The translations under genes and the position numbers were made by a program. Below the pieces are notes generated by a model that ran no database searches, was not told where the DNA came from, and worked only from the letters and a program-made list of their open reading frames with translations. Positions 10,359-44,288 of a stretch of DNA of 64,000 bases are shown here, in pieces; within the stretch, counting starts at the first letter, position 1, and every line of letters starts with the position of its first letter. The stretch comes from a virus. Lineage: Duplodnaviria; Heunggongvirae; Uroviricota; Caudoviricetes. The stretch is from positions 24,416-88,415 of IMG/VR virus record IMGVR_UViG_3300021255_002784. The stretch is one strand, 5' to 3'.

Positions 10359-11477
10359 ATGGAAGATTATTTAATTTGCCCAATATGTAGTTGTAAAAGT
10401 AAAAACCTAATATCACATATTAGAAGAACTCATGACAAAAATATAAAAAACAGAGTTGATTTTGAAAATAGATTTCCTGAATTAAAAGGTACAAAACTTC
10501 AGATATCTAGATACGATTTGTCAAAAGAATTTAAGTGTGAGTTTTGTGGAAAAATCTACCACAGATTGAATGACTTAAGAAACCATATTCGGCAAAATCA
10601 TCCGGATAAATACTTCAAAACAATACCTAACTTAAAAGCACCTCAACAAAAATGTCCTATATGCTCAAAACTGGTAGGAAACTTAAGACAACATGTTAAA
10701 GAATCTCATGATTTAGAATGGGAAGTATTTTGTAAAGAATATAATTGGGACGTTAATAAAGCAAAAATTATAACTGACGAGTACAGGAAAAAATTGTCGG
10801 AAAATAAAAAATTATATTATAGGAGTCCAGAAGGGTTGAAAAGAAGAAAGAAACAATCAGATTTCTGGAAAGAAAATAATCCAGTCTACAATCCAAAATG
10901 TTTAGAAAAATCAATGTTTACAAGAAGTTCAAATGGGCACCTACCAGTACGAAACCAGGATTGTAGAGGAATAAAAGTTAATTGTTTTGGAAAAACATTC
11001 AGAAGTTTTACCGAATTTAAGTTTTATATCTTGTGCAAAAAATACGGATTAAACATCAGATATGAACCAAACGATTATTGCGTCAAATGGTATTCAGAAG
11101 ATAAAAAATTTTATACTACATATCTCCCAGATTTCATCATAAATGAAAACGAACTGATCGAATTAAAACAAGACAAATATCAGGTTAAAAAATGTGTAAA
11201 TTTTGAGAAATACATAAAAGTTTCAGAAGCATATAAAAAATTAAATGTTAATTTTAAGATAGTTGATCCTATTGAATTTTTCAAAGAAAGGGGCGTAATT
11301 TTAGATTTTGAAGATAAACAGTACATTAAAGATAATATATTAAATTTGTATGATAAAAACGCTATACGAATAATAACCCCGTATAAAGAATCTTCCGAAT
11401 TAAGAGATCTTTTCGAAACGGACAATTTATCGAACATTTCTTGCATAACATTCACCAAAAATGCTAAAAAATCATAA
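10359..11477 (+). CDS. free-standing homing endonuclease (C2H2 zinc fingers + PD-(D/E)xK/Vsr-like domain) located between the IntN and IntC genes
   Basis: three CxxC...HxxxH fingers (CPICSCKSKNLISHIRRTHD, CEFCGKIYHRLNDLRNHIRQNHPD, CPICSKLVGNLRQHVKESHD); C-terminal YLPDFII...ELIELK nuclease-like motif; own ATG after a frame-0 stop, different frame from flanking ORFs. Confidence 0.6.
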   Translation: MEDYLICPICSCKSKNLISHIRRTHDKNIKNRVDFENRFPELKGTKLQISRYDLSKEFKCEFCGKIYHRLNDLRNHIRQNHPDKYFKTIPNLKAPQQKCPICSKLVGNLRQHVKESHDLEWEVFCKEYNWDVNKAKIITDEYRKKLSENKKLYYRSPEGLKRRKKQSDFWKENNPVYNPKCLEKSMFTRSSNGHLPVRNQDCRGIKVNCFGKTFRSFTEFKFYILCKKYGLNIRYEPNDYCVKWYSEDKKFYTTYLPDFIINENELIELKQDKYQVKKCVNFEKYIKVSEAYKKLNVNFKIVDPIEFFKERGVILDFEDKQYIKDNILNLYDKNAIRIITPYKESSELRDLFETDNLSNISCITFTKNAKKS

Positions 11478-12582
11478 TATGAAATATTGCAAAATTTATA
11501 AAATAGAGACTATAACTGTTGACCAACCAGTATATGATATAGAATTGGCAGAAAATCATTATTTTTCCGCCAATGGTATAATCACACATAATTGCAGGCT
11601 CAAGAACAAGGTGCAAACCAAAGAGTTCAATTTCACCAATGGTAATATGGGCGTCATGACTGGTAGCAAGTCAGTCATCACTCTGAATCTGAACCGTATT
11701 ATCCAAGACAGTTATAATGAGTGGTGTAAGATCTTCTCTAATGGTACACCTGACGAACTGAAAGAGACGTTCAAAGAAGACTACAGTGTTCTTTGCAACA
11801 GTCTCCAACAAGTACTCGAAAGAGTATATAAGTATCACACCGCCTACAACGAGAGCCTCTGGCGTATGTACGATGCACATATGTTACCTGTATATAGAGC
11901 AGGATTCATATCACTGGACAAGCAGTACCTGACTATCGGCATCAATGGTCTGAACGAAGCCGCTGAGTTCCTTGGTATATCCATCAATGACAACCCCGAG
12001 TATTCGAAGTTCTGTCAGACGGTGTTTAGCTGTATCAAAGATATGAACACCTCACACAACGGTAAGTTTAACGGACATAAACTGACATTCAATACCGAGT
12101 GTGTTCCTGCAGAATCGTTAGCTGCCAAGAACTACAACTGGGACAAGGCTGATGGATACTGGGTTCCTGAAGGACGTAATCTGTATGCATCTTATATATA
12201 TCTACCGTCTGACGAGAAAGTCAATCTGTTCGAGAAGATACGTATGCACGGTAAGAATTACATCGGCGACTACCTGGACGGAGGATCAGCAGCTCACCTC
12301 AACCTGGACAGTCACCTGAGTAAAGCCCAGTACGAGAAAGTGCTTCAGTACGCAGCTGAACAAGGATGTCAGTACCTGACTTTCAATATACCGAACAGTG
12401 AGTGTGCCGACTGTGGATATATTACGAAAGTACCTATTGCTCAATGCCCGAAGTGTGGATCAGAACATATCTGGTACTACGACAGACCGATTGGATATAT
12501 AACCCGAATAGATCGCTGGGCAACAGCAAGACAGATCGAACAAAAAACAAGAGTATACGAACACATTCCATCGGATTGTTAA
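11461..12582 (+). CDS. nrdD: IntC (C-terminal intein part) fused to the NrdD C-terminal fragment
   Basis: intein blocks F/G (VYDIELAENHYFSANGIITHN) then +1 Cys resuming CRLKNK (completes SSC|CRL); C-terminal Zn-ribbon CADCGY...CPKCGS and glycyl-radical region RPIGYITRI. Confidence 0.8.
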   Translation: MLKNHNMKYCKIYKIETITVDQPVYDIELAENHYFSANGIITHNCRLKNKVQTKEFNFTNGNMGVMTGSKSVITLNLNRIIQDSYNEWCKIFSNGTPDELKETFKEDYSVLCNSLQQVLERVYKYHTAYNESLWRMYDAHMLPVYRAGFISLDKQYLTIGINGLNEAAEFLGISINDNPEYSKFCQTVFSCIKDMNTSHNGKFNGHKLTFNTECVPAESLAAKNYNWDKADGYWVPEGRNLYASYIYLPSDEKVNLFEKIRMHGKNYIGDYLDGGSAAHLNLDSHLSKAQYEKVLQYAAEQGCQYLTFNIPNSECADCGYITKVPIAQCPKCGSEHIWYYDRPIGYITRIDRWATARQIEQKTRVYEHIPSDC

Positions 12583-34680: not shown

Positions 34681-34766
34681 ACCGCAATGGCGGAATTGGT
34701 AGACGCACCAGACTTAAAATCTGATGGACCAAAAGGTCCGTGTGGGTTCGAGTCCCACTTGCGGCA
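34681..34766 (+). tRNA. tRNA-Leu (anticodon TAA), type II
   Basis: cloverleaf: TG + GCG/CGC D-stem, anticodon loop CTTAAAA, variable arm hairpin, GTGGG-TTCGAGT-CCCAC T-arm; A1.C72 mismatch. Confidence 0.7.
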
Positions 34767-35126
34767 CAGTGTAAAAAAATTAAAAAAAAATATAAAGATC
34801 ACTAAAATTTAGAAAAGTTTTCTTATATATTATTGTAGAAGGACAGAAGCAAAAGTTCTAATACAAAACGATCTTTGACATATTGGAAATAGCAAAAAAG
34901 AAACTACATTGCTAAGGAAGGATAGTAAAACTATCCTGACAAAGCAATCGCAATACAAACAGGCGTAACGCTACTGTTTCTCGTGAGAGTTCAGTTACGA
35001 AAGGATGGGTCGAAAGACTTTCTTATCACATCCCGGACCACTTAGATCGATGAGGTGGACATTACGTAACGCTTTGACACAACGAGCGTATTTCTAGAAA
35101 TAGAATTTTGGAGTTGAGTTATCAAT

Positions 35127-35201
35127 AGGGTAGTGGCTCAGTCCGGTTAGAGCACTTGATTTGGGATCAAGGGGTCGCAGGTTCGAATCCTGTCTACCCT
35201 A
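35127..35201 (+). tRNA. tRNA-Pro (TGG)
   Basis: canonical cloverleaf, anticodon loop TTTGGGA. Confidence 0.85.
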
Positions 35202-35367
35202 CATACAGTTTGACATTGCGACGAAGAGCAAATCACGCAAAGTTACTTGAACAGTTCGGTGGCAGATATTGGAGATATATTGGTGAGACGGACGAAGACC
35301 AAGAAGGATGGTGATCGTAGCGCTTGAAATAACTCTAACGTATGGTAATGAGAATGTCAATCTTTTA

Positions 35368-35439
35368 GGGGAGTTAGCTCAATGGTAGAGCAATTGGCCG
35401 TTAACCAATAGGTTGTAGGTTCGAATCCTGCACTCCCCG
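35368..35439 (+). tRNA. tRNA-Asn (GTT)
   Basis: canonical cloverleaf, loop CCGTTAA. Confidence 0.85.
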
Positions 35440-35598
35440 CAAGTGGCGGGCGATTGATAGTTCTTACCGTCCAAGTTATAAGAACTATACAAAGAGCGAA
35501 ACGCAGGAGGCTCCATGAGAGGTGACTTTAAGCAAGACTCTCAAATCCAAAAACTTTATCTCGTAGAAGTTCCGGACACGGTTTTCATATGAGAGGTA

Positions 35599-35675
35599 CG
35601 TCTTTAAGCTTTGCACGGAGTGAAGTAGTATTGGGCTCTGTCCGGTAGAACGAGGTTCGAATCCTTGAAAGACGG
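35599..35675 (+). tRNA. tRNA-like element, possibly Arg (TCT), non-canonical
   Basis: 7-bp acceptor CGTCTTT/AAAGACG, good T-arm (CGAGG-TTCGAAT-CCTTG), D-stem GCTT/AAGT, anticodon arm with two G.U pairs and loop GCTCTGT (C33, G37). Confidence 0.35.
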
Positions 35676-35684
35676 CAATCGTAT

Positions 35685-35757
35685 TGGGAGATCTTCTAAA
35701 CGGTTAGGAAATCGGTCTGATACACCGGCAATCCGAGTTCGAGTCTCGGCCTCCCAA
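35685..35757 (+). tRNA. tRNA-Ile (GAT)
   Basis: cloverleaf, loop CTGATAC; A7.C66 mismatch. Confidence 0.75.
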
Positions 35758-35774
35758 CATAGTAAATACACTAA

Positions 35775-35847
35775 TGCCCTCTAGTATATCGAATTAGTAC
35801 ATCAGATTTTGATTCTGAGGGGCGAGGTTTGACTCCTCGGAGGGCAA
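35775..35847 (+). tRNA. tRNA-Gln (TTG)
   Basis: cloverleaf, loop TTTTGAT, U1-A72 pair typical of Gln; D-loop lacks GG. Confidence 0.75.
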
Positions 35848-36180
35848 CTTACAAATAAAACAATTTATGTGCAGCGCCTGACGACACATATCTTAGGAAT
35901 TGTAGGAACAACAATTTGGCAAATGTTGGGCACGGATAGTTGAAGGAAAACAACTTAAATAAACCAGAGTGCAGCGCCGAATGTGCCGTTGGGGATGGGG
36001 ACACACCTCTATAAATGAACAAAATGAATTATCTCCACCAACAAATCAACATGTCATTACGAACCAGCATAAGGTACGTACAATGTTCGTTTCTGAAAAG
36101 ATATAGGACTCTCAAAAAGACCAAGCTCCAGTTTGGCCACTGACTTGGGTGAGGAGAGGAAAATGAATGTTGATTTATAT

Positions 36181-36251
36181 TGCCTTTTGGTGTAATGGCA
36201 GCACATAGGGTTCTGGTCCCTAGAATCCGGGTTCGAGTCCTGGAGAGGCAA
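36181..36251 (+). tRNA. tRNA-Gln (CTG)
   Basis: cloverleaf, loop TTCTGGT, U1-A72. Confidence 0.75.
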
Positions 36252-36371
36252 CAAAAGCAATAAGTTGATGGTTCAAATCCATCTCGCGCGGAAGCGTTCA
36301 GTCAGACTTCCAAGTGATAGTTGGCCTGAAATTGGTCTTCGAAGATAAATGGTGTAAAACGTATTGCTCAC

Positions 36372-36455
36372 GGGAGAGCGCCAACGATGGTGAGTTGGGA
36401 TGGACTGTAAATCCATTGTCTTTTGACTCAGGGGGTTCGAATCCCTCCTCTCCCA
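36372..36455 (+). tRNA. tRNA-Tyr (GTA), type II
   Basis: loop CTGTAAA, long variable arm. Confidence 0.8.
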
Positions 36456-36483
36456 CATATGAAGATACTGGAATAAAATATAT

Positions 36484-36559
36484 ACCTCGGTAGGCAAATG
36501 TTGGTAAAGCCGATAGACTTAGGATCTGTTGTTTGTGGGTTCGAATCCCACTCGGGGTA
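36484..36559 (+). tRNA. tRNA with anticodon TAG (Leu by the code) but a type-I (short variable arm) structure
   Basis: acceptor ACCTCGG/TCGGGGT with two G.U pairs, loop CTTAGGA, 5-nt variable region, A73. Confidence 0.55.
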
Positions 36560-36582
36560 CAACAGATGAAATAGTATTGCAA

Positions 36583-36657
36583 GACTCCGTAGCTCAGTTG
36601 GATGAGAGCAACGCACTTTTAATGCGTGGGTCCTGGGTTCAAGTCCCAGCGGGGTCA
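36583..36657 (+). tRNA. tRNA-Lys (TTT)
   Basis: canonical, loop CTTTTAA. Confidence 0.85.
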
Positions 36658-36869
36658 CAATTATAACTAAAGTTAGAGGAAGAAGTCTTTTAGTTGTTCT
36701 CAGGAGAACGGCGGTTCGTTGAGGTACTGGGTCTGATAATGAAAAGGTTCCTCGTCAAAGGTTTAGGTCATAACCTTAGGATAATAACCCATAACTACTT
36801 TGAATGACCAGAGACTGTTATGGCAAAGGGGTCTTGACTAAAAGAGCGCATCACAAATCTAACTTATTT

Positions 36870-36942
36870 GGACCGGTAGCTCAGTTGGTAGAGCGCAGGC
36901 CTGAAGAGCCTGGCGTCGGCGGTTCGATCCCGTCCTGGTCCG
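36870..36942 (+). tRNA. tRNA-Phe (GAA)
   Basis: canonical, loop CTGAAGA. Confidence 0.85.
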
Positions 36943-36975
36943 CAATGAATAATGTGGCAGAGTGAAACGGATACG

Positions 36976-37051
36976 AGCTTTGTAATTATTGCTCAGAAAT
37001 CATTGGGGGCCCATAACCCACAGATAGCAGGTTCGACTCCTGCAGCCGCAA
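36976..37051 (+). tRNA. degenerate tRNA-like element (Met-like anticodon loop CCCATAA; no matching 5' acceptor)
   Basis: good T-arm GCAGG-TTCGACT-CCTGC and anticodon-like hairpin, but no complementary 5' acceptor or D-stem found. Confidence 0.25.
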
Positions 37052-37071
37052 CAAAATAAAAATATATAAAT

Positions 37072-37145
37072 GGTGTCATAGTTCAGCTGATTAGAATGCC
37101 TGACTGTCGATCAGGAGGTCGCGGGTTTGAGTCCCGCTGGCACCG
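37072..37145 (+). tRNA. tRNA-Asp (GTC)
   Basis: canonical, loop CTGTCGA. Confidence 0.85.
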
Positions 37146-37155
37146 CTAATATATG

Positions 37156-37227
37156 GGCCATGTAGTGTAACGGCTAGCACTTCACATTTGCAATGTGACG
37201 GAGGGGTTCGAATCCCACATGTGTCCA
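37156..37227 (+). tRNA. tRNA-Ala (TGC)-like element with defective T-stem/acceptor; ends in TCCA
   Basis: perfect anticodon arm TCACA-TTTGCAA-TGTGA, D-arm GTGT/GCAC, but T-stem and acceptor pairing are poor. Confidence 0.3.
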
Positions 37228-37237
37228 CAAACATCAT

Positions 37238-37319
37238 ACCCTGGTGGCGGAATTGGTAGACGCGCTTGACTCAAAATCAGGTCCGAAAGGGTGTGTGGGT
37301 TCGAGTCCTACCTAGGGTA
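37238..37319 (+). tRNA. tRNA-Leu (CAA), type II
   Basis: TG + GCG D-stem, loop CTCAAAA, variable hairpin, GTGGG-TTCGAGT-CCTAC. Confidence 0.8.
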
Positions 37320-37338
37320 CACGTAAAATAATATAAGT

Positions 37339-37662
37339 ATGAGAAAAATTATCAATGCGTTCGCAGTCTTGTTTATATTGATTGGATTAAATGCATGTCA
37401 GGTACAGAAAATCAATCCAAAATGGACACAGGATCCGCGAGTAGAAGTAGTAAATGAACAGACAGTCATATTCCGGGATGTGATTAGGATTGAAATTATT
37501 TCAAACAATCCAGCGCAAATCACATACGTTTACGATTTGAAACATGGTAGACCGGTCAAGACAGCACGAAGTTCATTTGAAGTAAACGTAAAACACGGCG
37601 ACTATCTTATTCAGTCGAATCGCAAAATCACCAAAACACAGTACGAGGTCGTTATTGAATGA
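37339..37662 (+). CDS. small secreted/lipoprotein-like protein (107 aa) embedded in the tRNA array
   Basis: signal-peptide-like N-terminus MRKIINAFAVLFILIGLNAC (lipobox-like LNAC). Confidence 0.4.
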   Translation: MRKIINAFAVLFILIGLNACQVQKINPKWTQDPRVEVVNEQTVIFRDVIRIEIISNNPAQITYVYDLKHGRPVKTARSSFEVNVKHGDYLIQSNRKITKTQYEVVIE

Positions 37663-37901
37663 CCTCTGCTCATGAGGCTATTATCACAATTGGTTAATAT
37701 GGTGGGTTCGAATCCCTCTAGTCCCACAACCGGTAAAAAGACATATGTCTAGCGCAAAGCCGAGTGTCCTGCGCGATATAAAAAGGACTGCCAAGTCATC
37801 TTGAGGAGCTATAGATGAGCTACACGCTGTTGTGGTAAGTGAACAGAAAAGCTTTAGGGGTTTCAAAATTTGTAAATCTTTGTGTTGATGAGAAGCAACT
37901 A

Positions 37902-37971
37902 GTCTCGGTAGCTCAGTTGGTTAGAGCTCTCCGCGGAGGAGAGGTCGCTGGTTCAAGTCCAGTCTGAGACG
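37902..37971 (+). tRNA. tRNA-like gene with truncated anticodon arm (70 nt; possible anticodon CGG)
   Basis: perfect acceptor, D-arm (GCTC-AGTTGGTTA-GAGC) and T-arm, but only 19 nt between D and T arms (CTCTCC-GCGGA-GGAGAG, 5-nt loop). Confidence 0.4.
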
Positions 37972-37975
37972 ATGT

Positions 37976-38048
37976 GCCCGGATAGCTCAGTTGGTAGAGC
38001 AACTGATTTGTAATCAGTCGGTCGTCAGTTCGAGTCTGACCCCGGGCT
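37976..38048 (+). tRNA. tRNA-Thr (TGT)
   Basis: canonical, loop TTTGTAA; A7.C66. Confidence 0.8.
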
Positions 38049-38141
38049 CGCATGCATTTCCAGGATTCAATTGGAATCGAATTTCATATTTGGCGGGTGA
38101 CTAAAATTGATTATGGTGTTAATACTGGCAGAACACCCCAT

Positions 38142-38215
38142 GCAGGAATAGCTCAGTTGGCCAGAGCGGGACCTTGCCAAGGTTCAGGTCGCGAGTTCGA
38201 GTCTCGTTTCCTGCT
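38142..38215 (+). tRNA. tRNA-Gly (GCC)
   Basis: canonical, loop TTGCCAA. Confidence 0.85.
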
Positions 38216-38430
38216 CCAGGATATAGCCCAGATACGGGTCTGATGAAGACATTCGTTAGTAGTTGCGGGACGCCAATACGAAACAGTTTGTTGGATTCTA
38301 AAACATGAAGTTTATGGAGACTGTGGTGGTTGCAAACTCCGCAGTGGAAATGATGATGTATGTAAATAGAGTGCTCCCTGTGGAGGGGAGAGGTCGAAGA
38401 ATAACCCGTAAAAACTTCTGTCCTGACCAT

Positions 38431-38502
38431 GACCAATGAGTCCAGGCGGTTAGGCACCAATCTGCAAAATTGGGTAGCGGGGTTCAACTCCCTGATTGGT
38501 CA
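38431..38502 (+). tRNA. tRNA-Cys (GCA)
   Basis: loop CTGCAAA, T-loop TTCAACT. Confidence 0.75.
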
Positions 38503-38730
38503 CAAAATGGGTTCAAGCTGTACATAGGACCCTCCGGTAATTCCAGGTATGTATGTTTAGACCGGACGCTCGGGAGCTTATAGTCCTGCGATAGTGCGAC
38601 TAAATTACGGGACATGGTGTACGGTGCATATCTAGGGGGCTAGAAGGTGAGGGGTAAATAATGCTAGTTGCGAATAACCTCTTTATCAGCAATGGTACAG
38701 GTTCGACTCCTGATGTCTCGACAAATATAT

Positions 38731-38804
38731 GGCCTTATCGTCTAACCTGCGCAGGACGTTACTCTCTCAAGGTAAAAATCCGAGTTCGATCCTCGGTGAG
38801 GCTA
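38731..38804 (+). tRNA. tRNA-Glu (CTC)-like
   Basis: acceptor with two G.U pairs, loop CTCTCAA, D-loop without GG, T-arm CCGAG-TTCGATC-CTCGG. Confidence 0.5.
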
Positions 38805-38936
38805 CTATTGCAACTGGATTGGAAAACAGAGCACCATTCTAATCTCATGAGAGTTAGTAGGCAGGCATAGAAGATTCAGACTCTCAGACCCCGAGATAGC
38901 TCAGCTGGTTAGAGTCCAGTTCTCGGGACGCATTAT

Positions 38937-39011
38937 TGGTTCTGAGCTCGGCTGGTGCGTAGCGGCGGTCTCATAAACCGAGGGACGTGGGTTCAAATCC
39001 CACAGAGCCAA
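38937..39011 (+). tRNA. tRNA-Met (CAT), elongator-type
   Basis: loop CTCATAA, U1-A72 paired, large D-loop. Confidence 0.7.
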
Positions 39012-39086
39012 CACACAAAAAATTAAATGATCCATTAAAGATCAGAAGAGAGCTTCTATATATTATTATAGAAGAACGAAACATAC

Positions 39087-39159
39087 TGGGGTATAGTTCA
39101 GCTGGTAGAATGTTGGTCTCCAAAACCGAAGGTCGCGGGTTCGAATCCTGCTGCCCCTG
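39087..39159 (+). tRNA. tRNA-Trp (CCA)
   Basis: loop CTCCAAA, 3' CGCCCCT-like acceptor as in E. coli Trp; U1.U72 mismatch. Confidence 0.75.
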
Positions 39160-39264
39160 CTAAAGTTCGAAAGTCCTTAACGAAAGCGGTGTGATCAACA
39201 TGTCAACCTTAAACAAGTTGAAGACGCAGTGAAAATCTGACATCGTAAGAGGGAAGAACTTTTT

Positions 39265-39345
39265 ACTCCCATGCTGGAAATGGTAGACAGGCCAGACTAA
39301 GGATCTGGTGTCTTCGACGTGCGGGTTCGAGTCCCGCTGGGAGTA
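39265..39345 (+). tRNA. type-II tRNA with anticodon AAG (Leu by the code; unusual A34)
   Basis: TG + CTG/CAG D-stem as in the other Leu tRNAs, loop CTAAGGA, variable hairpin GTC-TTCG-GAC, perfect acceptor ACTCCCA/TGGGAGT. Confidence 0.6.
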
Positions 39346-39404
39346 CGTAAAACGGTAATCTAGTATACATTTGAAAAAGTTAGACTACCATTTTATTATA
39401 GATC

Positions 39405-39878
39405 ATGAGAAAAGATTTAATTGGAAGAACCCAGGATATTCTTAAATGGGTTGCTGAAGGATGGTCATTTACAGAAATGTACAAGGAACTCGGTTGTTCC
39501 CGAGATGCACTTCATTATTTCTTGAAAACCAGAAAGATCGAATATAAAGGTAATCAGAGTAGAAAAGGGAGAAAAATAGATCCTAAAAGAAAAACGGCTC
39601 TTCAACTTATAGATGGAATTGAAAATGGGCTCAGTATCGGTAATTCTACATTAAGGGACAGACTCATCCAAGACAAGCTCAAAGAATATAAGTGTGAAGT
39701 ATGTGGGGCGAATGAATGGTTCGGAAAACCCATACCGTTAGAGTTGCATCACAAGGATTTCAATCATCACAACTCTAAATTAGAAAATCTTCAAATACTA
39801 TGTCCAAATTGCCACGCATATATTCATAAATACAATATAATCACTCCTATGTTGGAAATGGTAGACAGGCCAGACTAA
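39405..39878 (+). CDS. HNH homing endonuclease (HTH + HNH) inserted in the tRNA array
   Basis: C-terminal HNH motif CEVCGANEW...LELHHKDFNHHNSKLENLQILCPNCH; the last 9 codons are encoded by a duplicated tRNA 5' half. Confidence 0.7.
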   Translation: MRKDLIGRTQDILKWVAEGWSFTEMYKELGCSRDALHYFLKTRKIEYKGNQSRKGRKIDPKRKTALQLIDGIENGLSIGNSTLRDRLIQDKLKEYKCEVCGANEWFGKPIPLELHHKDFNHHNSKLENLQILCPNCHAYIHKYNIITPMLEMVDRPD

Positions 39879-39923
39879 GGAGTTGGTGTCTTTGACGTGA
39901 GGGTTCGAGTCCCTCTTTGGGCA
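39844..39923 (+). pseudogene. chimeric/pseudo tRNA (5' half copied from the 39265 tRNA, 3' half from a different type-II tRNA)
   Basis: 33-nt near-identity to the 39265 tRNA up to the anticodon loop, then divergent 3' half with compensatory T-stem (GAGGG/CCCTC) and acceptor 3' TTTGGGC that cannot pair with the 5' end. Confidence 0.5.
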
Positions 39924-40286
39924 CAGGTCTTTGACATATTGATACCGCAAGAAAAGAATAAGTTCAAAGATTCAACACGTTTTTATGCGATTGAGTAGGC
40001 AGTTGGAATAATAAGCGTCATAAGATGAGGGAGTCGACGTTGAAATCGAATTGTTACCAGAGCAGCACTTACTGGGAGTATTAACAAAGTCTTGAAAGCT
40101 TCGAGATTTCATTGATGAACATAGCCCGAAGTCAACAAAACGAGAACGATTCAACGGGTTCGAATCCGATGAATCCAACACAAACCGGATGGTGCAACCG
40201 GATAGTCACGGGATTGAAACTTACTGAGTATGTTCCGCTTCAGAGTACTTCGGAGAACCCCTATATCTTTTAAGCGGTATCTTTTT

Positions 40287-40358
40287 GCCCCGATAGTTCA
40301 ACGGATAGAACATGTGGCTACGGACCACAGGATCCGGGTTCGAATCCTGGTCGGGGTA
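40287..40358 (+). tRNA. tRNA-Arg (ACG)
   Basis: canonical, loop CTACGGA. Confidence 0.85.
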
Positions 40359-40366
40359 CTTTTTAT

Positions 40367-40439
40367 GCGGGAGTAGCTCAGCTGGTAGAGCATCTGCCCT
40401 CCAAGCAGAGGGTCGCGAGTTCGAGTCTCGTCTCCCGCT
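40367..40439 (+). tRNA. tRNA-Gly (TCC)
   Basis: canonical arms; loop CCTCCAA (C33). Confidence 0.7.
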
Positions 40440-40514
40440 CAATCCTTCCAGGTTTAAGTTGAAAGAGCGGCCTGGTAGCTATGTTCTGGAATAGCAAAAA
40501 ACTCATCGCTCCAC

Positions 40515-40541
40515 AAGGATTTTGAAGGTTGAATCCTTTTT
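40515..40541 (+). terminator. rho-independent terminator-like hairpin inside the tRNA array
   Basis: AAGGATT-TTGAAGGTTG-AATCCTT + TTTTTT. Confidence 0.5.
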
Positions 40542-40544
40542 TAT

Positions 40545-40618
40545 GGTGTCTGTAGCTCAGCTGGTAGAGTGGAGGATTGTGGTTCCTAAGGTCGTGGGTC
40601 CGAGTCCCACCTGACACC
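40545..40618 (+). tRNA. tRNA-His (GTG) with encoded G-1
   Basis: loop TTGTGGT, extra 5' G opposite C73, T-loop TCCGAGT. Confidence 0.75.
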
Positions 40619-40638
40619 CATACACAAAACTATTCCAA

Positions 40639-41032
40639 TATGAATTTCAAAACGATAACACATCGTCAATCATGGAAAGATGCTGAAAGTATCTATATCA
40701 TGGAGAGTACAGGCGGCGCAATGATCAGAATCACCAAATACACTGATAATGAAGCCTATCTGTTATCTGACTTGTACGTCAATCCGGTATTGAGAAAACG
40801 TGGACTGGGTACTCTGATGATTGAAAGTGCTATCAAGGAGTGTCGTACTCATGCGCAGCTGAATGACATTGAGCCATGTGTCGTTGAGATGGCAGTTAAT
40901 GATCATTCCGAGAAGTTCTGTGCTGAATGGTATCAACGAATGGGGTTCGTTCTTAATAGAAGTGAAGCACCGATCGATACAACATTCGACAATGAACTTG
41001 AGTGGTGTGATATCTATAGACTCGTTGTCTGA
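40639..41032 (+). CDS. GNAT-family N-acetyltransferase
   Basis: motif A-like VNPVLRKRGLGTLMIESAI; the ORF as listed starts inside tRNA-His, so the start was moved to MNFKT. Confidence 0.55.
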
Positions 41033-41040
41033 TGTTTACA

Positions 41041-41115
41041 AGACTCCGTAACGGAGTCCCGCTGCACGGTCTCCGTGACTGCGTTAATGAAATCCGGAGG
41101 CTTTCAAGACTCCGT
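41041..41115 (+). repeat. inverted copy of the intergenic repeat cassette plus a GC-rich hairpin sub-element, abutting a tRNA 5' end
   Basis: reverse complement reads CGGAGTCTTGAAAGCCTCCGGATTTCATTAACGCAGTCACGGAGACCGTGCAGCGGGACTCCGTTA; palindrome GACTCCGTAACGGAGTC. Confidence 0.6.
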
Positions 41116-41180
41116 AGCTCAGTGTATAGAGCAGCAGTTTTCTAAACTGCCGGTCCTGGGTTAGAGTCCCAGCGGAGCCA
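41108..41180 (+). tRNA. tRNA-Arg (TCT) lacking G18G19 and C56
   Basis: loop TTTCTAA, D-loop AGTGTATA, T-loop TTAGAGT, A2.C71 mismatch; the first 15 nt are identical to tRNA-Lys. Confidence 0.6.
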
Positions 41181-41327
41181 CATTTTCTATTATTTTTTTC
41201 TTCATCAACGAAGTCCTGAAAAACTTTAGTTTTTTCACTAAATATTTTTCGTGTTTTCATATATTTATACATAACGCAGTCATAAATTCCTACGGGATTT
41301 CATTAACACTCAAAACAATATAGATAT

Positions 41328-41684
41328 ATGAAGCACATTCTTTGGATAGATGACCTGAGGGATCCACATTCTCCGAAGTGGAAAGAGTATCTCGATTATG
41401 CCGCAGAAGAGTTCTTAGATGTTCCTCTGAATGAGTGTACAGTAAGCTGGGCACGGAGCAAGAACGAGTTTATCCAGCATCTCATTCTTGAGACCTGGCC
41501 GGATCTAGTTTGTTTCGATCACGATCTCGGACTTGGTCCTACAGGGTACGACTGTGCCAAGTACTTAGTAGATATGTGCATGGAGACAGGCAATCCTCTT
41601 CCAGAGTTTGTATCCCAGTCGTCTAATCCAGTCGGGCGAGAAGACATCATTCGTTTACTTGAAAACTATAGGAAACACTTATAA
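41328..41684 (+). CDS. hypothetical protein (118 aa)
   Basis: ORF after a promoter box. Confidence 0.45.
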   Translation: MKHILWIDDLRDPHSPKWKEYLDYAAEEFLDVPLNECTVSWARSKNEFIQHLILETWPDLVCFDHDLGLGPTGYDCAKYLVDMCMETGNPLPEFVSQSSNPVGREDIIRLLENYRKHL

Positions 41685-41694
41685 TAACATTTCA

Positions 41695-42609
41695 ATGAAA
41701 AGACAAATCATTCTATTACAAGGACCGCCTCGAAGTGGTAAGACGACTTGGGCGAAAACACACTGGGACACAGCACCTCTAGATACCTACGTATATATGA
41801 TCAGCACCCACGACCTGAGCTGGAAGTCCACAGATAGGGGTTATATTATAAATACTCTGGACACTGTTCTAGAGACAGAGCGTAAAGCTATCATGGAGCG
41901 CCTCAGTTATTATGATAGAGACTGGGACATCATTGTCGACGCTTACAACGCCAATCCTAAGCGGGTTCAGGAGTTCGAAAAACTCGCGAACAAGATGGGT
42001 GCAGAATTGGTAATCAAGCAGTTCTATATTCCTTACTCTGAAAGTTACAAACGCAACAAAGAGGTTGGAGTCCATTCCAAAGAATACATTCCTCGGGACG
42101 TTTTGGCCGGGTTCTATGATACGTACTACCACGAATGGTACCGGGACGAGCTCACAGACAAGAGAGTCATCAGACAACCGGAACCTACTCTTCCTCCTTG
42201 CATCATCTGCGACCTGGATGCTACACTAGCCTTACATCAGGGACGGGAACCATTCGAATGGGACCGACTCCTGACTGACAAGATCGACCCTCGCTTGCGA
42301 GATCTGTTGAACTTCCATATGACGTCCGGCACCAAGGTGTTCTTTCTAACAGGTCGCACCCAACGCGCACGACTGGATACCTTGATGTGGTTGCAAAATC
42401 CGAAACAGGGTCTGTGTGATGGGTGGGAACTGATCACTCGCAGTCAAGGAGATTTCTCTTCGGGTGATGTATACAAACTCAAGATGTACGAGCAACTCAT
42501 ACAAGGCAAGTACAATGTACTGTGCGTCTTCGAAGACAGTAACAAGTGTGTGAAAATGTGGAGAGAACTCGGTCTCTTGACTTGCCAGGTAGCAAATTCA
42601 GAATACTAA
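41695..42609 (+). CDS. polynucleotide 5'-kinase/3'-phosphatase (T4 Pnk/PseT-like)
   Basis: N-terminal P-loop GPPRSGKTT kinase domain; C-terminal HAD phosphatase with IICDLDATLA (DxDxT). Confidence 0.65.
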   Translation: MKRQIILLQGPPRSGKTTWAKTHWDTAPLDTYVYMISTHDLSWKSTDRGYIINTLDTVLETERKAIMERLSYYDRDWDIIVDAYNANPKRVQEFEKLANKMGAELVIKQFYIPYSESYKRNKEVGVHSKEYIPRDVLAGFYDTYYHEWYRDELTDKRVIRQPEPTLPPCIICDLDATLALHQGREPFEWDRLLTDKIDPRLRDLLNFHMTSGTKVFFLTGRTQRARLDTLMWLQNPKQGLCDGWELITRSQGDFSSGDVYKLKMYEQLIQGKYNVLCVFEDSNKCVKMWRELGLLTCQVANSEY

Positions 42610-42610
42610 T

Positions 42611-42841
42611 ATGCTTGATATGACACCCGAAGAGTTCGAAGCCGAAGTGCAAGGTACCATAGGTCTCATCTGCGACTGTGTTCCGTACGACACACCTAAC
42701 TATCACGAAGAGGTTCGTAAGCTGGCTGAAGACATAGTACGCGAACTACACGATCCGGATTCGGAAACCAATCAAAAAATTGCAAGCGAACAGGTCGAAC
42801 ACGATGATATTATGTTCGATGCCGGATACATAGACTTCTAA
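42611..42841 (+). CDS. hypothetical acidic protein (76 aa)
   Basis: ORF. Confidence 0.4.
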   Translation: MLDMTPEEFEAEVQGTIGLICDCVPYDTPNYHEEVRKLAEDIVRELHDPDSETNQKIASEQVEHDDIMFDAGYIDF

Positions 42842-42963
42842 TATATGACCGAACAAGAACTCGCACTCTATCGTAAGTGTACTCGAAAGAAAAGATGTAC
42901 CAGATACGACTACGAGTCTGTCCATGAATATGATAACGAAACCAACGAAAACGATTATATACT

Positions 42964-43476
42964 ATGACAAAAGAAGAACAACGCACAAACATCCTTAATA
43001 TGCTGAGAGACAACAAGATCAACGTCAACGATGCCCTGTTGATGCTCAACCGATTAGATGAAGAGGACTCACCTGTCGGCGAAGGTGTTCCTGTAACAGC
43101 CAAAACCCAAAAATCTTATCAGGACCTGATTGAGGATATCGTGGACCAAGTCATATCTGGCATGGACATGGATCGCGTATATCAGATTATGAAAGATATG
43201 GATTGGAACTATGTGAGTAAACCTGTGACATACGATGATATCGTCGAATGTGCCAAAGATAATGTTCGACACACTCTGGAATATCTGGTGAATAATAGAA
43301 TCAAAACAGGCGACGCATCAGCCATGTCTGGTACGGGAGGGTTCTTGTGCCGAGCCTGGGTGGACGAGGATGACGAAGACAACATCCAGGTGGAACTCGG
43401 GTTCCAACCGATAACTGGGATCGGAGACGGTCATTTAGATAAGTTGGTCGCAGCCAAAATAGAAATGGCGTCGTAA
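42964..43476 (+). CDS. hypothetical protein (170 aa)
   Basis: ORF. Confidence 0.45.
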   Translation: MTKEEQRTNILNMLRDNKINVNDALLMLNRLDEEDSPVGEGVPVTAKTQKSYQDLIEDIVDQVISGMDMDRVYQIMKDMDWNYVSKPVTYDDIVECAKDNVRHTLEYLVNNRIKTGDASAMSGTGGFLCRAWVDEDDEDNIQVELGFQPITGIGDGHLDKLVAAKIEMAS

Positions 43477-43683
43477 AAAAGATCCAAACAACAAATACGC
43501 CAGGCCTAAAATCTTCGATCATTTCTATATATTATAATTGAGGATGATACCGAAGGATAGTGCCCTATAGTTTTTCTACTAAAATTAGATGTTCTTTCTT
43601 ATCTATTATATAGAAGAACAACAAATACGAGATATGCGACTTGTGCTTGCACATGAGGGACCCTATATCACGTATTTGTTATA

Positions 43684-43773
43684 TGGAGAGTTGTCAGAGT
43701 CCGGTTTATTGTGCGAATCTTGAAAATTCGTGGGCGTGATGAGCGCTCCGGGGGTTCGAATCCCTCACTCTCC
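43684..43773 (+). tRNA. tRNA-Ser (TGA), type II, with encoded CCA
   Basis: loop CTTGAAA, long variable arm, 3' ACTCTCC-T-CCA. Confidence 0.8.
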
Positions 43774-43786
43774 TCCAGAGTTATAT

Positions 43787-43874
43787 TGGTGAGTTGGCCG
43801 AGTGGCTTAAGGCGCTGGTTTGCTAAACCAGTGATCTCGAAAAGAGATCCGTAGGTTCGAATCCTGCACTCACC
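43787..43874 (+). tRNA. tRNA-Ser (GCT), type II
   Basis: loop TTGCTAA, variable hairpin GATCTC-GAAAA-GAGATC. Confidence 0.8.
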
Positions 43875-44215
43875 GCACCAGTTACTTGAGCTGGTCACCA
43901 GAAGAGTAACAGCCTTTGGACAAAGACCAATGTCGCGAAGGAGTGGTTGGAGAGGTTCTAAATACAAACCCGAGAAACCTGAAAAGGCGAAGAACGCAGT
44001 TTCCTCAAATTAGGTACCATAAGTTAGATAACACCTTAAAGCCTAATGAACATCGGTAATAATATCAATTCCACCGATAATCAAAATGGAGTGGTCGCGG
44101 CTGAGTCGAGAGAAAGCTGAGATTTATTAGAGAGCTCATATAATATCTCTTTTCGGTACGAACTTACCGTTAGTGGATGATTACCACGGGTTATACAGCC
44201 CTATCGTCTAGCGGA

Positions 44216-44288
44216 CCAGGACGCCTCTCTTTCACGGAGGAAACACGAGTTCGAATCTCGTTGGGGCTACTTGTGGGATGAGTAGCAG
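44216..44288 (+). tRNA. tRNA-Glu (TTC)
   Basis: loop CTTTCAC, canonical arms. Confidence 0.8.

What the first reader, a model, noticed from the sequence alone, without database searches (positions are those of the whole stretch)
37902..37971. tRNA-like gene with perfect acceptor, D- and T-arms but a truncated anticodon arm (5-nt loop)
This 70-nt element has GTCTCGG/CTGAGAC acceptor pairing, a GCTC-AGTTGGTTA-GAGC D-arm and a GCTGG-TTCAAGT-CCAGT T-arm. Only 19 nt lie between the D-arm and the T-arm, folding as CTCTCC-GCGGA-GGAGAG. It cannot present a normal 7-nt anticodon loop. It could be a decoy, a substrate-mimic or a regulatory tRNA-like RNA rather than a decoding tRNA, and it sits immediately upstream of tRNA-Thr.
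Basis: seen in the sequence. Interest (0 to 1): 0.5.

Follow-up and report, generated by a model that had tools for sequence, protein, structure and literature searches.

The report
Anticodon-dead tRNA-Thr relic in phage array
This 70-base element is a phage threonine-tRNA gene that has lost four bases from its anticodon arm, so it still folds like a tRNA but almost certainly cannot read codons, and is most likely a recently disabled gene copy rather than a new kind of regulatory RNA.

Summary
Window 37902-37971 (+) scores 49.2 bits against the Rfam tRNA model. It has a perfect acceptor stem, D arm and T arm, but the nine central positions of the anticodon arm are replaced by 5 nt (CUCC-GCGGA-GGAG). 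ARAGORN's "tRNA-Pro(CGG)" call works only by breaking the D stem and accepting G33.

The element is not an assembly error: three independent assemblies carry it identically.

Its origin is clear. In related T4-like gut/rumen phage contigs the same position holds a canonical tRNA-Thr(GGU). These are L164 (85% identical flanks), L126 and L001. In each, the tRNA lies downstream of the same conserved structured spacer.

None of about 15 informative close relatives carries the truncated form. Many lack the whole segment. About 175 nt upstream in the window lies a second, more decayed tRNA relic that has lost its entire anticodon arm.

Best reading (about 0.6): a lineage-specific, decoding-dead derivative of tRNA-Thr(GGU). 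It is probably still transcribed and end-processed.

A selected role, as a processing module or a decoy, is not excluded (about 0.2-0.25). The tRNA body is flawless, and related phages keep other tRNA-likes with contracted anticodon loops.

Interest is modest.

The parts
37902..37971 (+). 70-nt tRNA-like element: a tRNA-Thr(GGU) derivative with a contracted anticodon arm. Acceptor 5' strand 37902-37908; D arm 37911-37927; U26 at 37928; stem 37929-37932 paired with 37938-37941; pentaloop GCGGA 37933-37937; variable loop 37942-37946; T arm 37947-37963; acceptor 3' strand 37964-37970; discriminator G at 37971.
   Evidence: Rfam tRNA model 49.2 bits with the anticodon loop region collapsed from 9 to 5 nt. 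Orthology to canonical tRNA-Thr(GGU) in L164, L126 and L001. All 20 scorable pairs retained.
37929..37938 (.). Perfect 10-nt palindrome CTCCGCGGAG, created by the contraction of the anticodon arm. It is a possible footprint of a hairpin-templated or slippage mutation.
   Evidence: Read directly from the sequence. It is unique in the window. The ancestral-type sequence CTCCCGTGGTAAGGGAG is seen in L164.
37976..38049 (+). Canonical tRNA-Thr(UGU), 4 nt downstream. It is the only intact Thr tRNA in the window and the likely partner of the element in a dimeric precursor.
   Evidence: ARAGORN; Rfam 66.1 bits.
37727..37901 (+). Conserved structured spacer RNA immediately upstream of the element. In every lineage that has it, tRNA-Thr(GGU) or this truncated derivative follows it.
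   Evidence: BLAST conservation. RNAalifold on 5 lineages predicts 37 pairs, 11 of them with compensatory changes. No Rfam family matches.
37674..37726 (+). Second tRNA relic, the ortholog of a full-length tRNA-Asp(GUC)-type gene that follows the same ORF in L126, L166 and L155. It has lost the whole anticodon arm and variable loop (about 22-24 nt), and mismatches are accumulating in its D and T stems.
   Evidence: Custom scan and side-by-side sequences. Not called by ARAGORN or by Rfam on the + strand.
37339..37662 (+). 107-aa predicted lipoprotein ORF. It served as the anchor for retrieving related loci and has no evident functional link to the element.
   Evidence: Translation shows a signal peptide with a lipobox. 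No Pfam or PHROG hit. 117 homologous protein clusters found.

Best explanation
The element is a lineage-specific, decoding-dead descendant of the phage's tRNA-Thr(GGU) gene. In an ancestor resembling L164, the anticodon arm read G26 CUCCC-GUGGUAA-GGGAG. In this phage, the closing base pair and the 7-nt loop (9 nt) have been replaced by the 5-nt GCGGA. This removes U33 and the GGU anticodon, and leaves a 4-5 bp helix capped by a pentaloop.

Inferred steps follow. The gene lies in a densely packed same-strand tRNA array, with no promoter-like site in the preceding spacer, so it is still co-transcribed. Its acceptor/T-arm minihelix and D/T elbow are intact. RNase P should therefore still cut at G1, and the 3' end should still be trimmed and given CCA. 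The product cannot pair with a codon in the normal way. It also lacks the anticodon bases G35 and U36 that ThrRS uses.

The element is thus effectively a pseudo-tRNA. Any residual usefulness is passive. It would supply the RNase P site that ends the conserved upstream spacer RNA. It would also act as the folded upstream partner of tRNA-Thr(UGU) in a dimeric precursor.
For: Shown:
- The Rfam tRNA model and manual parsing confirm an intact tRNA body with a collapsed anticodon loop.
- The syntenic orthologs are canonical tRNA-Thr(GGU). They are L164 1047-1120 (flanks 85.5% identical over 310 nt, followed 5 nt later by a second tRNA-Thr, as in the window), L126 6970-7045, and L001 11823-11895 (identical copies in L132 and L133). 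All lie downstream of the same spacer RNA.
- The truncated form was found only as 100% identical copies in L149-L151. It is absent from about 15 informative loci whose anchor ORF is 80-93% identical. Several of these (L124/L154, L129, L153) go straight from the ORF to the next tRNA-Thr, so the whole segment is dispensable.
- About 175 nt upstream lies a second tRNA relic that has lost its whole anticodon arm and is decaying further. This stretch of the array is eroding in this lineage.
- The 7-nt-loop alternative costs about 5 kcal/mol and needs G33.
- No sigma-70-like promoter lies in 37727-37901.

Inferred from established knowledge: bacterial RNase P and the 3'-processing enzymes recognise the acceptor/T-arm minihelix. 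ThrRS uses anticodon positions 35 and 36. U33 is needed for the anticodon U-turn.
Against: - Apart from the anticodon arm, the gene shows no decay. All 16 body pairs and the conserved tertiary nucleotides are intact.
- Polarising with L126 as outgroup, the three stem substitutions specific to the window lineage (positions 5, 63 and 69) each turn a G.U pair into a Watson-Crick pair.
- The contraction is tidy. By the most parsimonious alignment it took about three small deletions and one substitution, all within 13 nt, with no indel in the other ~55 nt of the tRNA or in the 72-nt spacer immediately upstream. The arm remains a perfect helix.
- Related phages maintain other tRNA-likes with contracted anticodon loops across divergent lineages. 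Such RNAs can therefore be kept by selection.
- ACC and ACU, the codons read by GGU, make up 55% of Thr codons in the window's ORFs. The loss is therefore not explained by disuse of these codons.
Confidence: 0.6

Rival explanations
1. The element is a selected, non-decoding tRNA-like RNA. The anticodon module was discarded while the RNase P/Z recognition module was kept. The RNA now serves as processing punctuation: it would define the 3' end of the conserved upstream spacer RNA and stabilise the precursor of tRNA-Thr(UGU). Alternatively it acts as a decoy or sponge for a tRNA-binding host factor, such as an anticodon nuclease or other tRNA-targeting defence, or a modification enzyme.
For: - The tRNA body is flawless, and the window-lineage substitutions improve pairing.
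- The changes are concentrated in the anticodon arm, which stays a perfect helix.
- The spacer RNA with covarying hairpins is always followed by this tRNA.
- In the window, both elements flanking that spacer keep the acceptor and T arms and lack a working anticodon arm.
- Other tRNA-likes with contracted loops are conserved in relatives. The family that follows the lipoprotein ORF is 88-100% identical between clades whose ORF DNA is only about 69% identical, and nearly all its variation lies in the anticodon arm, with A-U/G-C/G.U stem covariation. Two paralogs in L141 have 6-nt loops and fully different but still paired stems.
- The array also encodes RNA-repair proteins, a polynucleotide kinase (Pnk) and a cREC_REC domain protein. 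This suggests pressure from tRNA-damaging defences. Anticodon loops are known battlegrounds between phages and hosts (PMC10264068, PMC11555353).
- The truncated allele sits in at least two genome backgrounds, because L150 diverges upstream of window position 36869.
Against: - Only one sequence version of the truncated form exists, so there is no comparative evidence for selection on the truncated state.
- All orthologs are ordinary tRNA-Thr(GGU).
- Close relatives do without the whole segment.
- The upstream relic has D- and T-stem mismatches, as expected for decay rather than maintenance.
- Any ordinary tRNA would serve equally well as a processing signal.
- No Thr-specific anticodon nuclease was linked to this system here.
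Confidence: 0.23
2. The element is an unconventional but functional decoding tRNA, as ARAGORN labels it. It would be tRNA-Pro(CGG), with a 4-5 bp anticodon stem, the 7-nt loop C-G-CGG-A-G and a shortened variable region.
For: - ARAGORN reports tRNA-Pro(CGG).
- The sequence can be drawn as UCUC/GAGA plus the loop CGCGGAG.
- Relatives carry tRNA-likes with 4-bp anticodon stems and C...G-flanked loops that keep a YAU anticodon.
- CCG codons are used in the window's ORFs (81 of 354 Pro codons).
Against: - This reading needs G33 instead of the near-universal U33.
- It needs a Watson-Crick C32-G38 pair to stay open, about 5 kcal/mol worse than the closed form.
- ARAGORN's drawing sacrifices the D stem.
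- By homology the GG comes from the GGU Thr anticodon, not from a Pro tRNA.
- The acceptor has G1-C72 and G73, not the G72/A73 identity set known for bacterial ProRS (established knowledge).
- Two normal tRNA-Pro(UGG) genes already exist in the array.
Confidence: 0.04
3. The contraction is a scar or an immunity allele left by a site-specific endonuclease, such as a homing endonuclease, that targets the anticodon-arm DNA of tRNA-Thr(GGU). This rival concerns origin rather than present function, and it is compatible with the pseudogene reading.
For: - The array contains an HNH endonuclease gene at 39405-39878, and related arrays do too.
- L003 shows a similar tRNA 5' half interrupted right after the D arm by an insert carrying a small zinc-ribbon ORF.
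- Both relics in the window have lesions centred on the anticodon arm.
- From memory: T4 SegB is a homing endonuclease that acts in the tRNA gene cluster.
Against: No endonuclease gene adjoins the element or its orthologs in L164, L126 or L001. No target site was identified. The idea is purely circumstantial.
Confidence: 0.1
4. The short loop is a sequencing or assembly artefact.
For: None beyond the prior that indels occur in assemblies.
Against: The 70-nt sequence is identical in three assemblies from different projects: ENA ERZ12302814, ENA ERZ28612978 and JGI 3300002641.
Confidence: 0.01

Closest known systems
Phage-encoded pseudo-tRNA genes in tRNA arrays of large myoviruses (for example the two pseudo-tRNAs reported in Klebsiella phage RaK2, PMC3622015) and non-canonical tRNA gene remnants in prokaryotes (PMC9897764)
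   Same: It is a tRNA-derived gene inside a phage tRNA cluster that gene finders still detect but that carries a lesion incompatible with canonical decoding. It is restricted to one lineage and has functional orthologs elsewhere.
   Different: The lesion is an in-place contraction of the anticodon stem-loop, and every other tRNA feature is perfect. It is not a 5' or 3' fragment and not a generally low-scoring sequence. It scores 49 bits against the Rfam tRNA model.
Canonical phage tRNA-Thr(GGU), the orthologs in L164, L126 and L001
   Same: Same genomic position, same upstream spacer RNA and same acceptor, D and T architecture, with compensatory substitutions between lineages.
   Different: It has 4 nt fewer (9 nt replaced by 5): no U33, no GGU anticodon, and a pentaloop GCGGA.
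Non-decoding tRNA-like processing elements: MHV68 vtRNAs/TMERs, the MALAT1 mascRNA, and the stable species 1 and 2 RNAs co-processed in the T4 tRNA cluster (recalled from memory)
   Same: A tRNA-shaped module that processing enzymes could recognise without taking part in translation. It sits next to another structured RNA in a T4-like tRNA cluster.
   Different: Processing and stability are untested here. Those elements are conserved within their lineages, whereas this truncated form is known from a single sequence.
Phage tRNAs with anticodon-loop substitutions that evade anticodon nucleases (PMC10264068, PMC11555353)
   Same: Change is concentrated in the anticodon loop of a phage-encoded tRNA, in a genome that also carries RNA-repair genes.
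   Different: Those tRNAs keep a 7-nt loop and still decode. This one has a 5-nt loop and cannot be expected to decode.

Membership tests
Canonical decoding tRNA (Rfam RF00005) | Covariance-model score above the gathering threshold | tested here: met
   49.2 bits against a gathering score of 29, full-length match 1-71.
Canonical decoding tRNA (Rfam RF00005) | 7-bp acceptor stem, 4-bp D stem with G18 G19, and 5-bp T stem with a TTCRA loop | tested here: met
   All pairs are present.
Canonical decoding tRNA (Rfam RF00005) | 5-bp anticodon stem with a 7-nt loop carrying U33 and a purine at position 37 | tested here: not met
   The model's positions 31-39 align to 5 nt, GCGGA. The only 7-nt alternative has G33 and is about 5 kcal/mol worse.
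tRNA-Thr(GGU) orthologous group of these phages | Syntenic position downstream of the conserved spacer RNA, and sequence homology of the tRNA body | tested here: met
   Alignments with L164, L126 and L001.
tRNA-Thr(GGU) orthologous group of these phages | GGU anticodon in a 7-nt loop | tested here: not met
   GUGGUAA in the orthologs versus GCGGA in the window.
tRNA-Pro(CGG), the ARAGORN label | Canonical cloverleaf presenting CGG at positions 34-36, with U33 | tested here: not met
   ARAGORN's fold breaks the D stem, has a 3-nt variable loop and has G33.
tRNA-Pro(CGG), the ARAGORN label | Bacterial ProRS acceptor identity (A73, G72) | tested here: not met
   The sequence has G73 and G1-C72. 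The identity rule itself is taken from established knowledge.
tRNA pseudogene / relic | Derived from a functional ortholog by a disabling lesion, and restricted to one lineage | tested here: met
   The only copies found are 100% identical.
tRNA pseudogene / relic | Relaxed constraint visible outside the lesion (broken pairs, lost conserved bases) | tested here: not met
   The body is fully intact. This is compatible with a recent event, so the result lowers confidence in the pseudogene reading but does not exclude it.
tRNA pseudogene / relic | Lack of a stable, functional RNA product | not testable with these tools
   Needs RNA-seq or northern analysis.
Other tRNA-like RNA families (tmRNA, YrlA and other curated Rfam families) | Match to the family covariance model at its gathering score | tested here: not met
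   Only a sub-threshold YrlA hit was found (20.3 bits against 69, E=0.16), spanning two adjacent tRNAs. There was no tmRNA hit.
Processing-signal tRNA-like elements (vtRNA / mascRNA type) | Cleavage by RNase P and RNase Z, CCA addition, and no aminoacylation | not testable with these tools
   Only the structural prerequisites (the acceptor/T minihelix) can be seen.

The most novel reading that the evidence does not exclude
T4-like gut/rumen phages may deliberately keep 'anticodon-less' tRNA bodies. This element would be one of them. Others would be the conserved 69-70-nt tRNA-like that follows the lipoprotein gene in relatives and the two L141 paralogs with 6-nt loops. Such RNAs would retain the RNase P/Z and elbow recognition surfaces. 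They would work either as processing modules for neighbouring structured RNAs and tRNAs, or as uncleavable decoys that titrate tRNA-targeting host defences.
Probability: 0.2. Interest if true: 0.65.

Novelty: new member of a known kind. Interest (0 to 1): 0.3.

Why it matters
As it stands, the finding mainly matters for annotation. The ARAGORN label tRNA-Pro(CGG) is wrong. The gene should be recorded as a disabled tRNA-Thr(GGU), which leaves this phage with a single intact Thr tRNA. The finding also gives a dated snapshot of how hyper-plastic phage tRNA arrays lose genes through lesions centred on the anticodon arm. If the minority reading is right, and such contracted-anticodon tRNA bodies are selected, they would form a new class of phage tRNA-like RNAs. 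That class would bear on RNA processing in tRNA arrays and on the phage-host conflict over tRNA cleavage. The conserved relatives found here would be the better entry point for experiments.

Tried and rejected
- An exact 23-mer from the truncated arm has no match in IMG/VR.
- A pattern of D arm plus T arm with a variable gap returned about 120 loci. Almost all are ordinary 23-nt-gap tRNA-Met/Ile-type genes, probably host attachment-site tRNAs. None has a 19-nt gap, so this search was uninformative.
- GenBank phages hold no close relative at the DNA or protein level.
- A locus search anchored on the polynucleotide kinase (Pnk) protein found nothing.
- Spacer-motif pattern scans found only the L001 contig in IMG/VR and nothing in the GTDB genomes.
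- A pattern for the ORF-adjacent tRNA-like found only the L001 and L002 contigs in IMG/VR.
- I considered that the spacer motif ...CTTGAGGAGCTATAG... might be a T7-type promoter. It occurs only once in 64 kb and shows hairpin covariation, so I rejected that idea.
- The weak YrlA hit is an artefact of two adjacent tRNAs.
- I first read the upstream relic as a fusion of two different tRNAs, based on BLAST breakpoints. Direct comparison shows that both acceptor strands come from the same Asp-type tRNA, which has an internal deletion.
- No donor copy of CTCCGCGGAGGAG exists elsewhere in the window, so gene conversion from within the window is unlikely.
- Literature searches found no described class of phage tRNA-likes with 4-6-nt anticodon loops.

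Full report
**1. What is there**

Window 37902-37971 (+) reads GTCTCGG TA GCTC AGTTGGTTA GAGC T CTCC GCGGA GGAG AGGTC GCTGG TTCAAGT CCAGT CTGAGAC G.

It lies inside a same-strand array of 29 ARAGORN-called tRNA genes between 34.6 and 44.3 kb. The Rfam tRNA covariance model matches it end to end at 49.2 bits (gathering score 29, E=1.6e-7). The acceptor stem, D arm, variable loop and T arm all align. Model positions 31-39, which are the closing pair and the 7-nt anticodon loop, are replaced by 5 nt.

ARAGORN labels the element tRNA-Pro(CGG). Its drawing takes the last base of the D stem into the anticodon stem, leaves a 3-nt variable loop and puts G at position 33. A cloverleaf with the 5-nt loop evaluates at -24.9 to -26.3 kcal/mol. 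With the loop forced open to 7 nt it evaluates at -21.4 kcal/mol.

**2. It is real DNA**

The 107-aa ORF just upstream (37339-37662) was looked up by exact sequence. It lies on contigs from three independent assemblies: ENA ERZ12302814 (197 kb), ENA ERZ28612978 and JGI 3300002641. All three are 100% identical to the window across the element. One of them, L150, diverges from the window upstream of position 36869. The allele therefore sits in at least two genome backgrounds.

**3. Genomic context**

The window encodes several informative genes:
- a T4-type portal protein;
- an intein-split anaerobic ribonucleotide reductase and ThyX;
- a DNA ligase;
- an HNH endonuclease, a GNAT acetyltransferase, a cyclic-phosphate-processing receiver domain protein (cREC_REC) and a polynucleotide kinase (Pnk), all inside the tRNA array.

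No GenBank phage is close. This is an uncultured T4-like phage. Its relatives come from gut- and rumen-type metagenomes, according to the record names.

**4. Relatives and orthology**

Using the upstream ORF as an anchor, I retrieved:
- 3 IMG/VR loci;
- 25 JGI/ENA metagenome loci;
- 31 further loci (14 near the window's clade, 17 in the clade carrying the ORF-adjacent tRNA-like) by looking up homologs from a protein search.

BLAST of window 37300-38250 against these loci shows that the array downstream of the ORF is a mosaic.
- In L124/L154, L129 and L153 the ORF is followed within about 15 nt by the next tRNA-Thr. The whole 37665-37975 segment is absent.
- In other loci a Gly, Asp, Ala or Ile tRNA follows the ORF.
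- Three lineages retain the segment: L164 (85.5% identity over window 37737-38040), L126 (68.6% over 37702-37969, plus L166, whose contig ends before the tRNA) and L001 (identical in L132 and L133).
- In each of these three lineages, a canonical tRNA-Thr(GGU) occupies the element's position.

The L164 ortholog reads GTCTTGA TA GTTC AGTTGGTTA GAAC G CTCCC GTGGTAA GGGAG AGGTC ACTGG TTCAAGT CCGGT TCAGGAC A. A second tRNA-Thr follows it 5 nt later, just as in the window.

On the four-sequence alignment the cloverleaf is 98.8% paired. Seven pairs show changes on both sides (0 of 500 shuffles reach this number), and the window sequence keeps every scorable pair.

Relative to L164, the window has replaced C31-GUGGUAA-G39 (9 nt) with GCGGA (5 nt). 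The product contains the perfect palindrome CTCCGCGGAG. That sequence is unique in the window.

**5. Signs of decay nearby**

A second tRNA-like lies about 175 nt upstream, at 37674-37726. It is the ortholog of a full-length Asp(GUC)-type tRNA that follows the same ORF in L126, L166 and L155. In the window it lacks the entire anticodon arm and variable loop. It also has mismatches in the D and T stems. This part of the array is therefore eroding in the window's lineage.

None of the other loci examined carries the truncated Thr form.

**6. Signs against simple decay**

- Outside the anticodon arm the element is flawless.
- With L126 as outgroup, the three stem substitutions assignable to the window lineage (positions 5, 63 and 69) each convert a G.U pair to a Watson-Crick pair.
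- All indels relative to L164 fall within 13 nt of the anticodon arm, and the arm remains a perfect helix.
- The 175-nt spacer upstream (37727-37901) is a conserved structured RNA. RNAalifold predicts 37 pairs, 11 of them with compensatory changes across five lineages. No Rfam family matches it. In every lineage that has it, this tRNA follows.
- Relatives conserve other tRNA-likes with contracted anticodon arms:
  - A 69-70-nt element lies 8-13 nt after the lipoprotein ORF in more than 25 loci. It is 88-100% identical between clades whose ORF DNA is about 69% identical. Nearly all its variation lies in the anticodon arm. The variants are ATTT-CTTATAG-AAAT, GTTT-CTTATGG-AAAT, ATTT-CGTATG-AAAT, GTTT-CTCATG-AAAC and GTTT-CGCATG-AAAC.
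  - Two paralogs in L141 have 6-nt loops and completely different but still paired stems.

RNAs of this kind can therefore be maintained by selection in this phage group.

**7. Interpretation**

The most economical account is that the element is a tRNA-Thr(GGU) gene disabled in this lineage by a contraction of the anticodon arm. The palindrome suggests slippage or a hairpin-templated event, but this is inference.

Further inferred steps:
- No promoter-like site lies in the spacer, and the acceptor/T minihelix is intact. The element should therefore still be transcribed with the array and processed at both ends.
- It cannot decode, and it lacks the anticodon determinants that ThrRS uses.
- The phage then depends on its tRNA-Thr(UGU) and on host tRNAs. 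ACC and ACU still make up 55% of Thr codons in its ORFs.

I put this reading at about 0.6. A selected non-decoding role, as a processing module for the spacer RNA and the downstream tRNA or as a decoy, gets about 0.2-0.25. Its main weakness is that only one sequence version of the truncated form exists, so no comparative test is possible. A genuine decoding tRNA-Pro(CGG) is unlikely (about 0.04), and an artefact is excluded for practical purposes.

**8. Comparison with known things and novelty**

Pseudo-tRNAs in the tRNA clusters of large phages are routinely reported (for example PMC3622015). Misclassified tRNA remnants are a recognised annotation problem (PMC9897764). Phage tRNAs with anticodon-loop substitutions that evade nucleases keep a 7-nt loop and still decode (PMC10264068, PMC11555353).

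Literature searches found no described class of phage tRNA-likes with 4-6-nt anticodon loops.

I file the element as a new member of a known kind, a disabled phage tRNA gene, with modest interest. The conserved ORF-adjacent tRNA-like family and the structured spacer RNA, both found in passing, are the more promising leads.

Noticed in passing
window 37727-37901 (+); also L164 859-1046, L126 6799-6969, L166 2253-2425, L001 11643-11822: A conserved, structured spacer RNA of about 175 nt lies between a tRNA and tRNA-Thr(GGU). It has several hairpins with compensatory changes (11 of 37 predicted pairs) and no Rfam match. It may be a stable RNA co-processed with the tRNAs, like the species 1 and 2 RNAs of T4.
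   Followed up: partly
window 37674-37726 (+): A 53-nt relic of an Asp(GUC)-type tRNA. It keeps the acceptor and T arms but has lost the whole anticodon arm and variable loop, and it has D- and T-stem mismatches. Full-length orthologs are in L126 6341-6415, L166 1796-1870 and L155 2837-2911.
   Followed up: yes
L001 10335-10405, L002 5347-5417, L130-L135, L137, L169-L185 (8-13 nt after the lipoprotein ORF): A strongly conserved 69-70-nt tRNA-like has a 4-bp anticodon stem and a 6- or 7-nt loop flanked by C...G. It keeps a YAU (Ile UAU/CAU-like) triplet. Variation is concentrated in the anticodon arm while the body is almost invariant, even though the ORF DNA is only about 69% identical between clades. 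There is an extra nucleotide at the T-stem/acceptor junction.
   Followed up: partly
L141 1557-1631 and 1823-1895: Two paralogous tRNA-likes that ARAGORN reports as tRNA-??? with two-base anticodons (6-nt loops, or 4-nt loops on 5-bp stems). Their anticodon and T stems differ completely in sequence but remain paired.
   Followed up: no
window 41328-41684 and 41608-42609 (+): A cyclic-phosphate-processing receiver domain protein (cREC_REC) and a polynucleotide kinase (Pnk) are embedded in the tRNA array. This suggests an RNA (tRNA) repair module. No RNA ligase was looked for.
   Followed up: no
window 8743-10317, 10359-11477, 11461-12582 (+): An anaerobic ribonucleotide reductase (NrdD) is split in two by intein-splicing sequences, with a zinc-finger ORF in between. 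This is probably an intein or homing-endonuclease insertion.
   Followed up: no
L003 8527-8760: The 5' half of a tRNA (acceptor plus D arm, 23 of 26 bases matching the element) is followed directly by an AT-rich insert that encodes a small Cys-rich ORF. This may be an intron or a mobile endonuclease inserted in a tRNA gene.
   Followed up: no
window 34681-44270: The 29-gene tRNA set contains no tRNA-Val and only one intact tRNA-Thr (UGU). The syntenic downstream tRNA-Thr in relatives has the anticodon AGU rather than UGU.
   Followed up: no
L001 12890-13278: A phage-encoded tmRNA (114 bits, tag peptide GERTYALAA) lies in the tRNA array of a related 184-kb contig.
   Followed up: no
L016 ~550-630 (IMGVR_UViG_3300037466_003310, 345 kb): Another jumbo-phage tRNA has the same D and T arms but only 22 nt between them, and an irregular anticodon arm (AGTCC TGTAATA GGGAT).
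   Followed up: no
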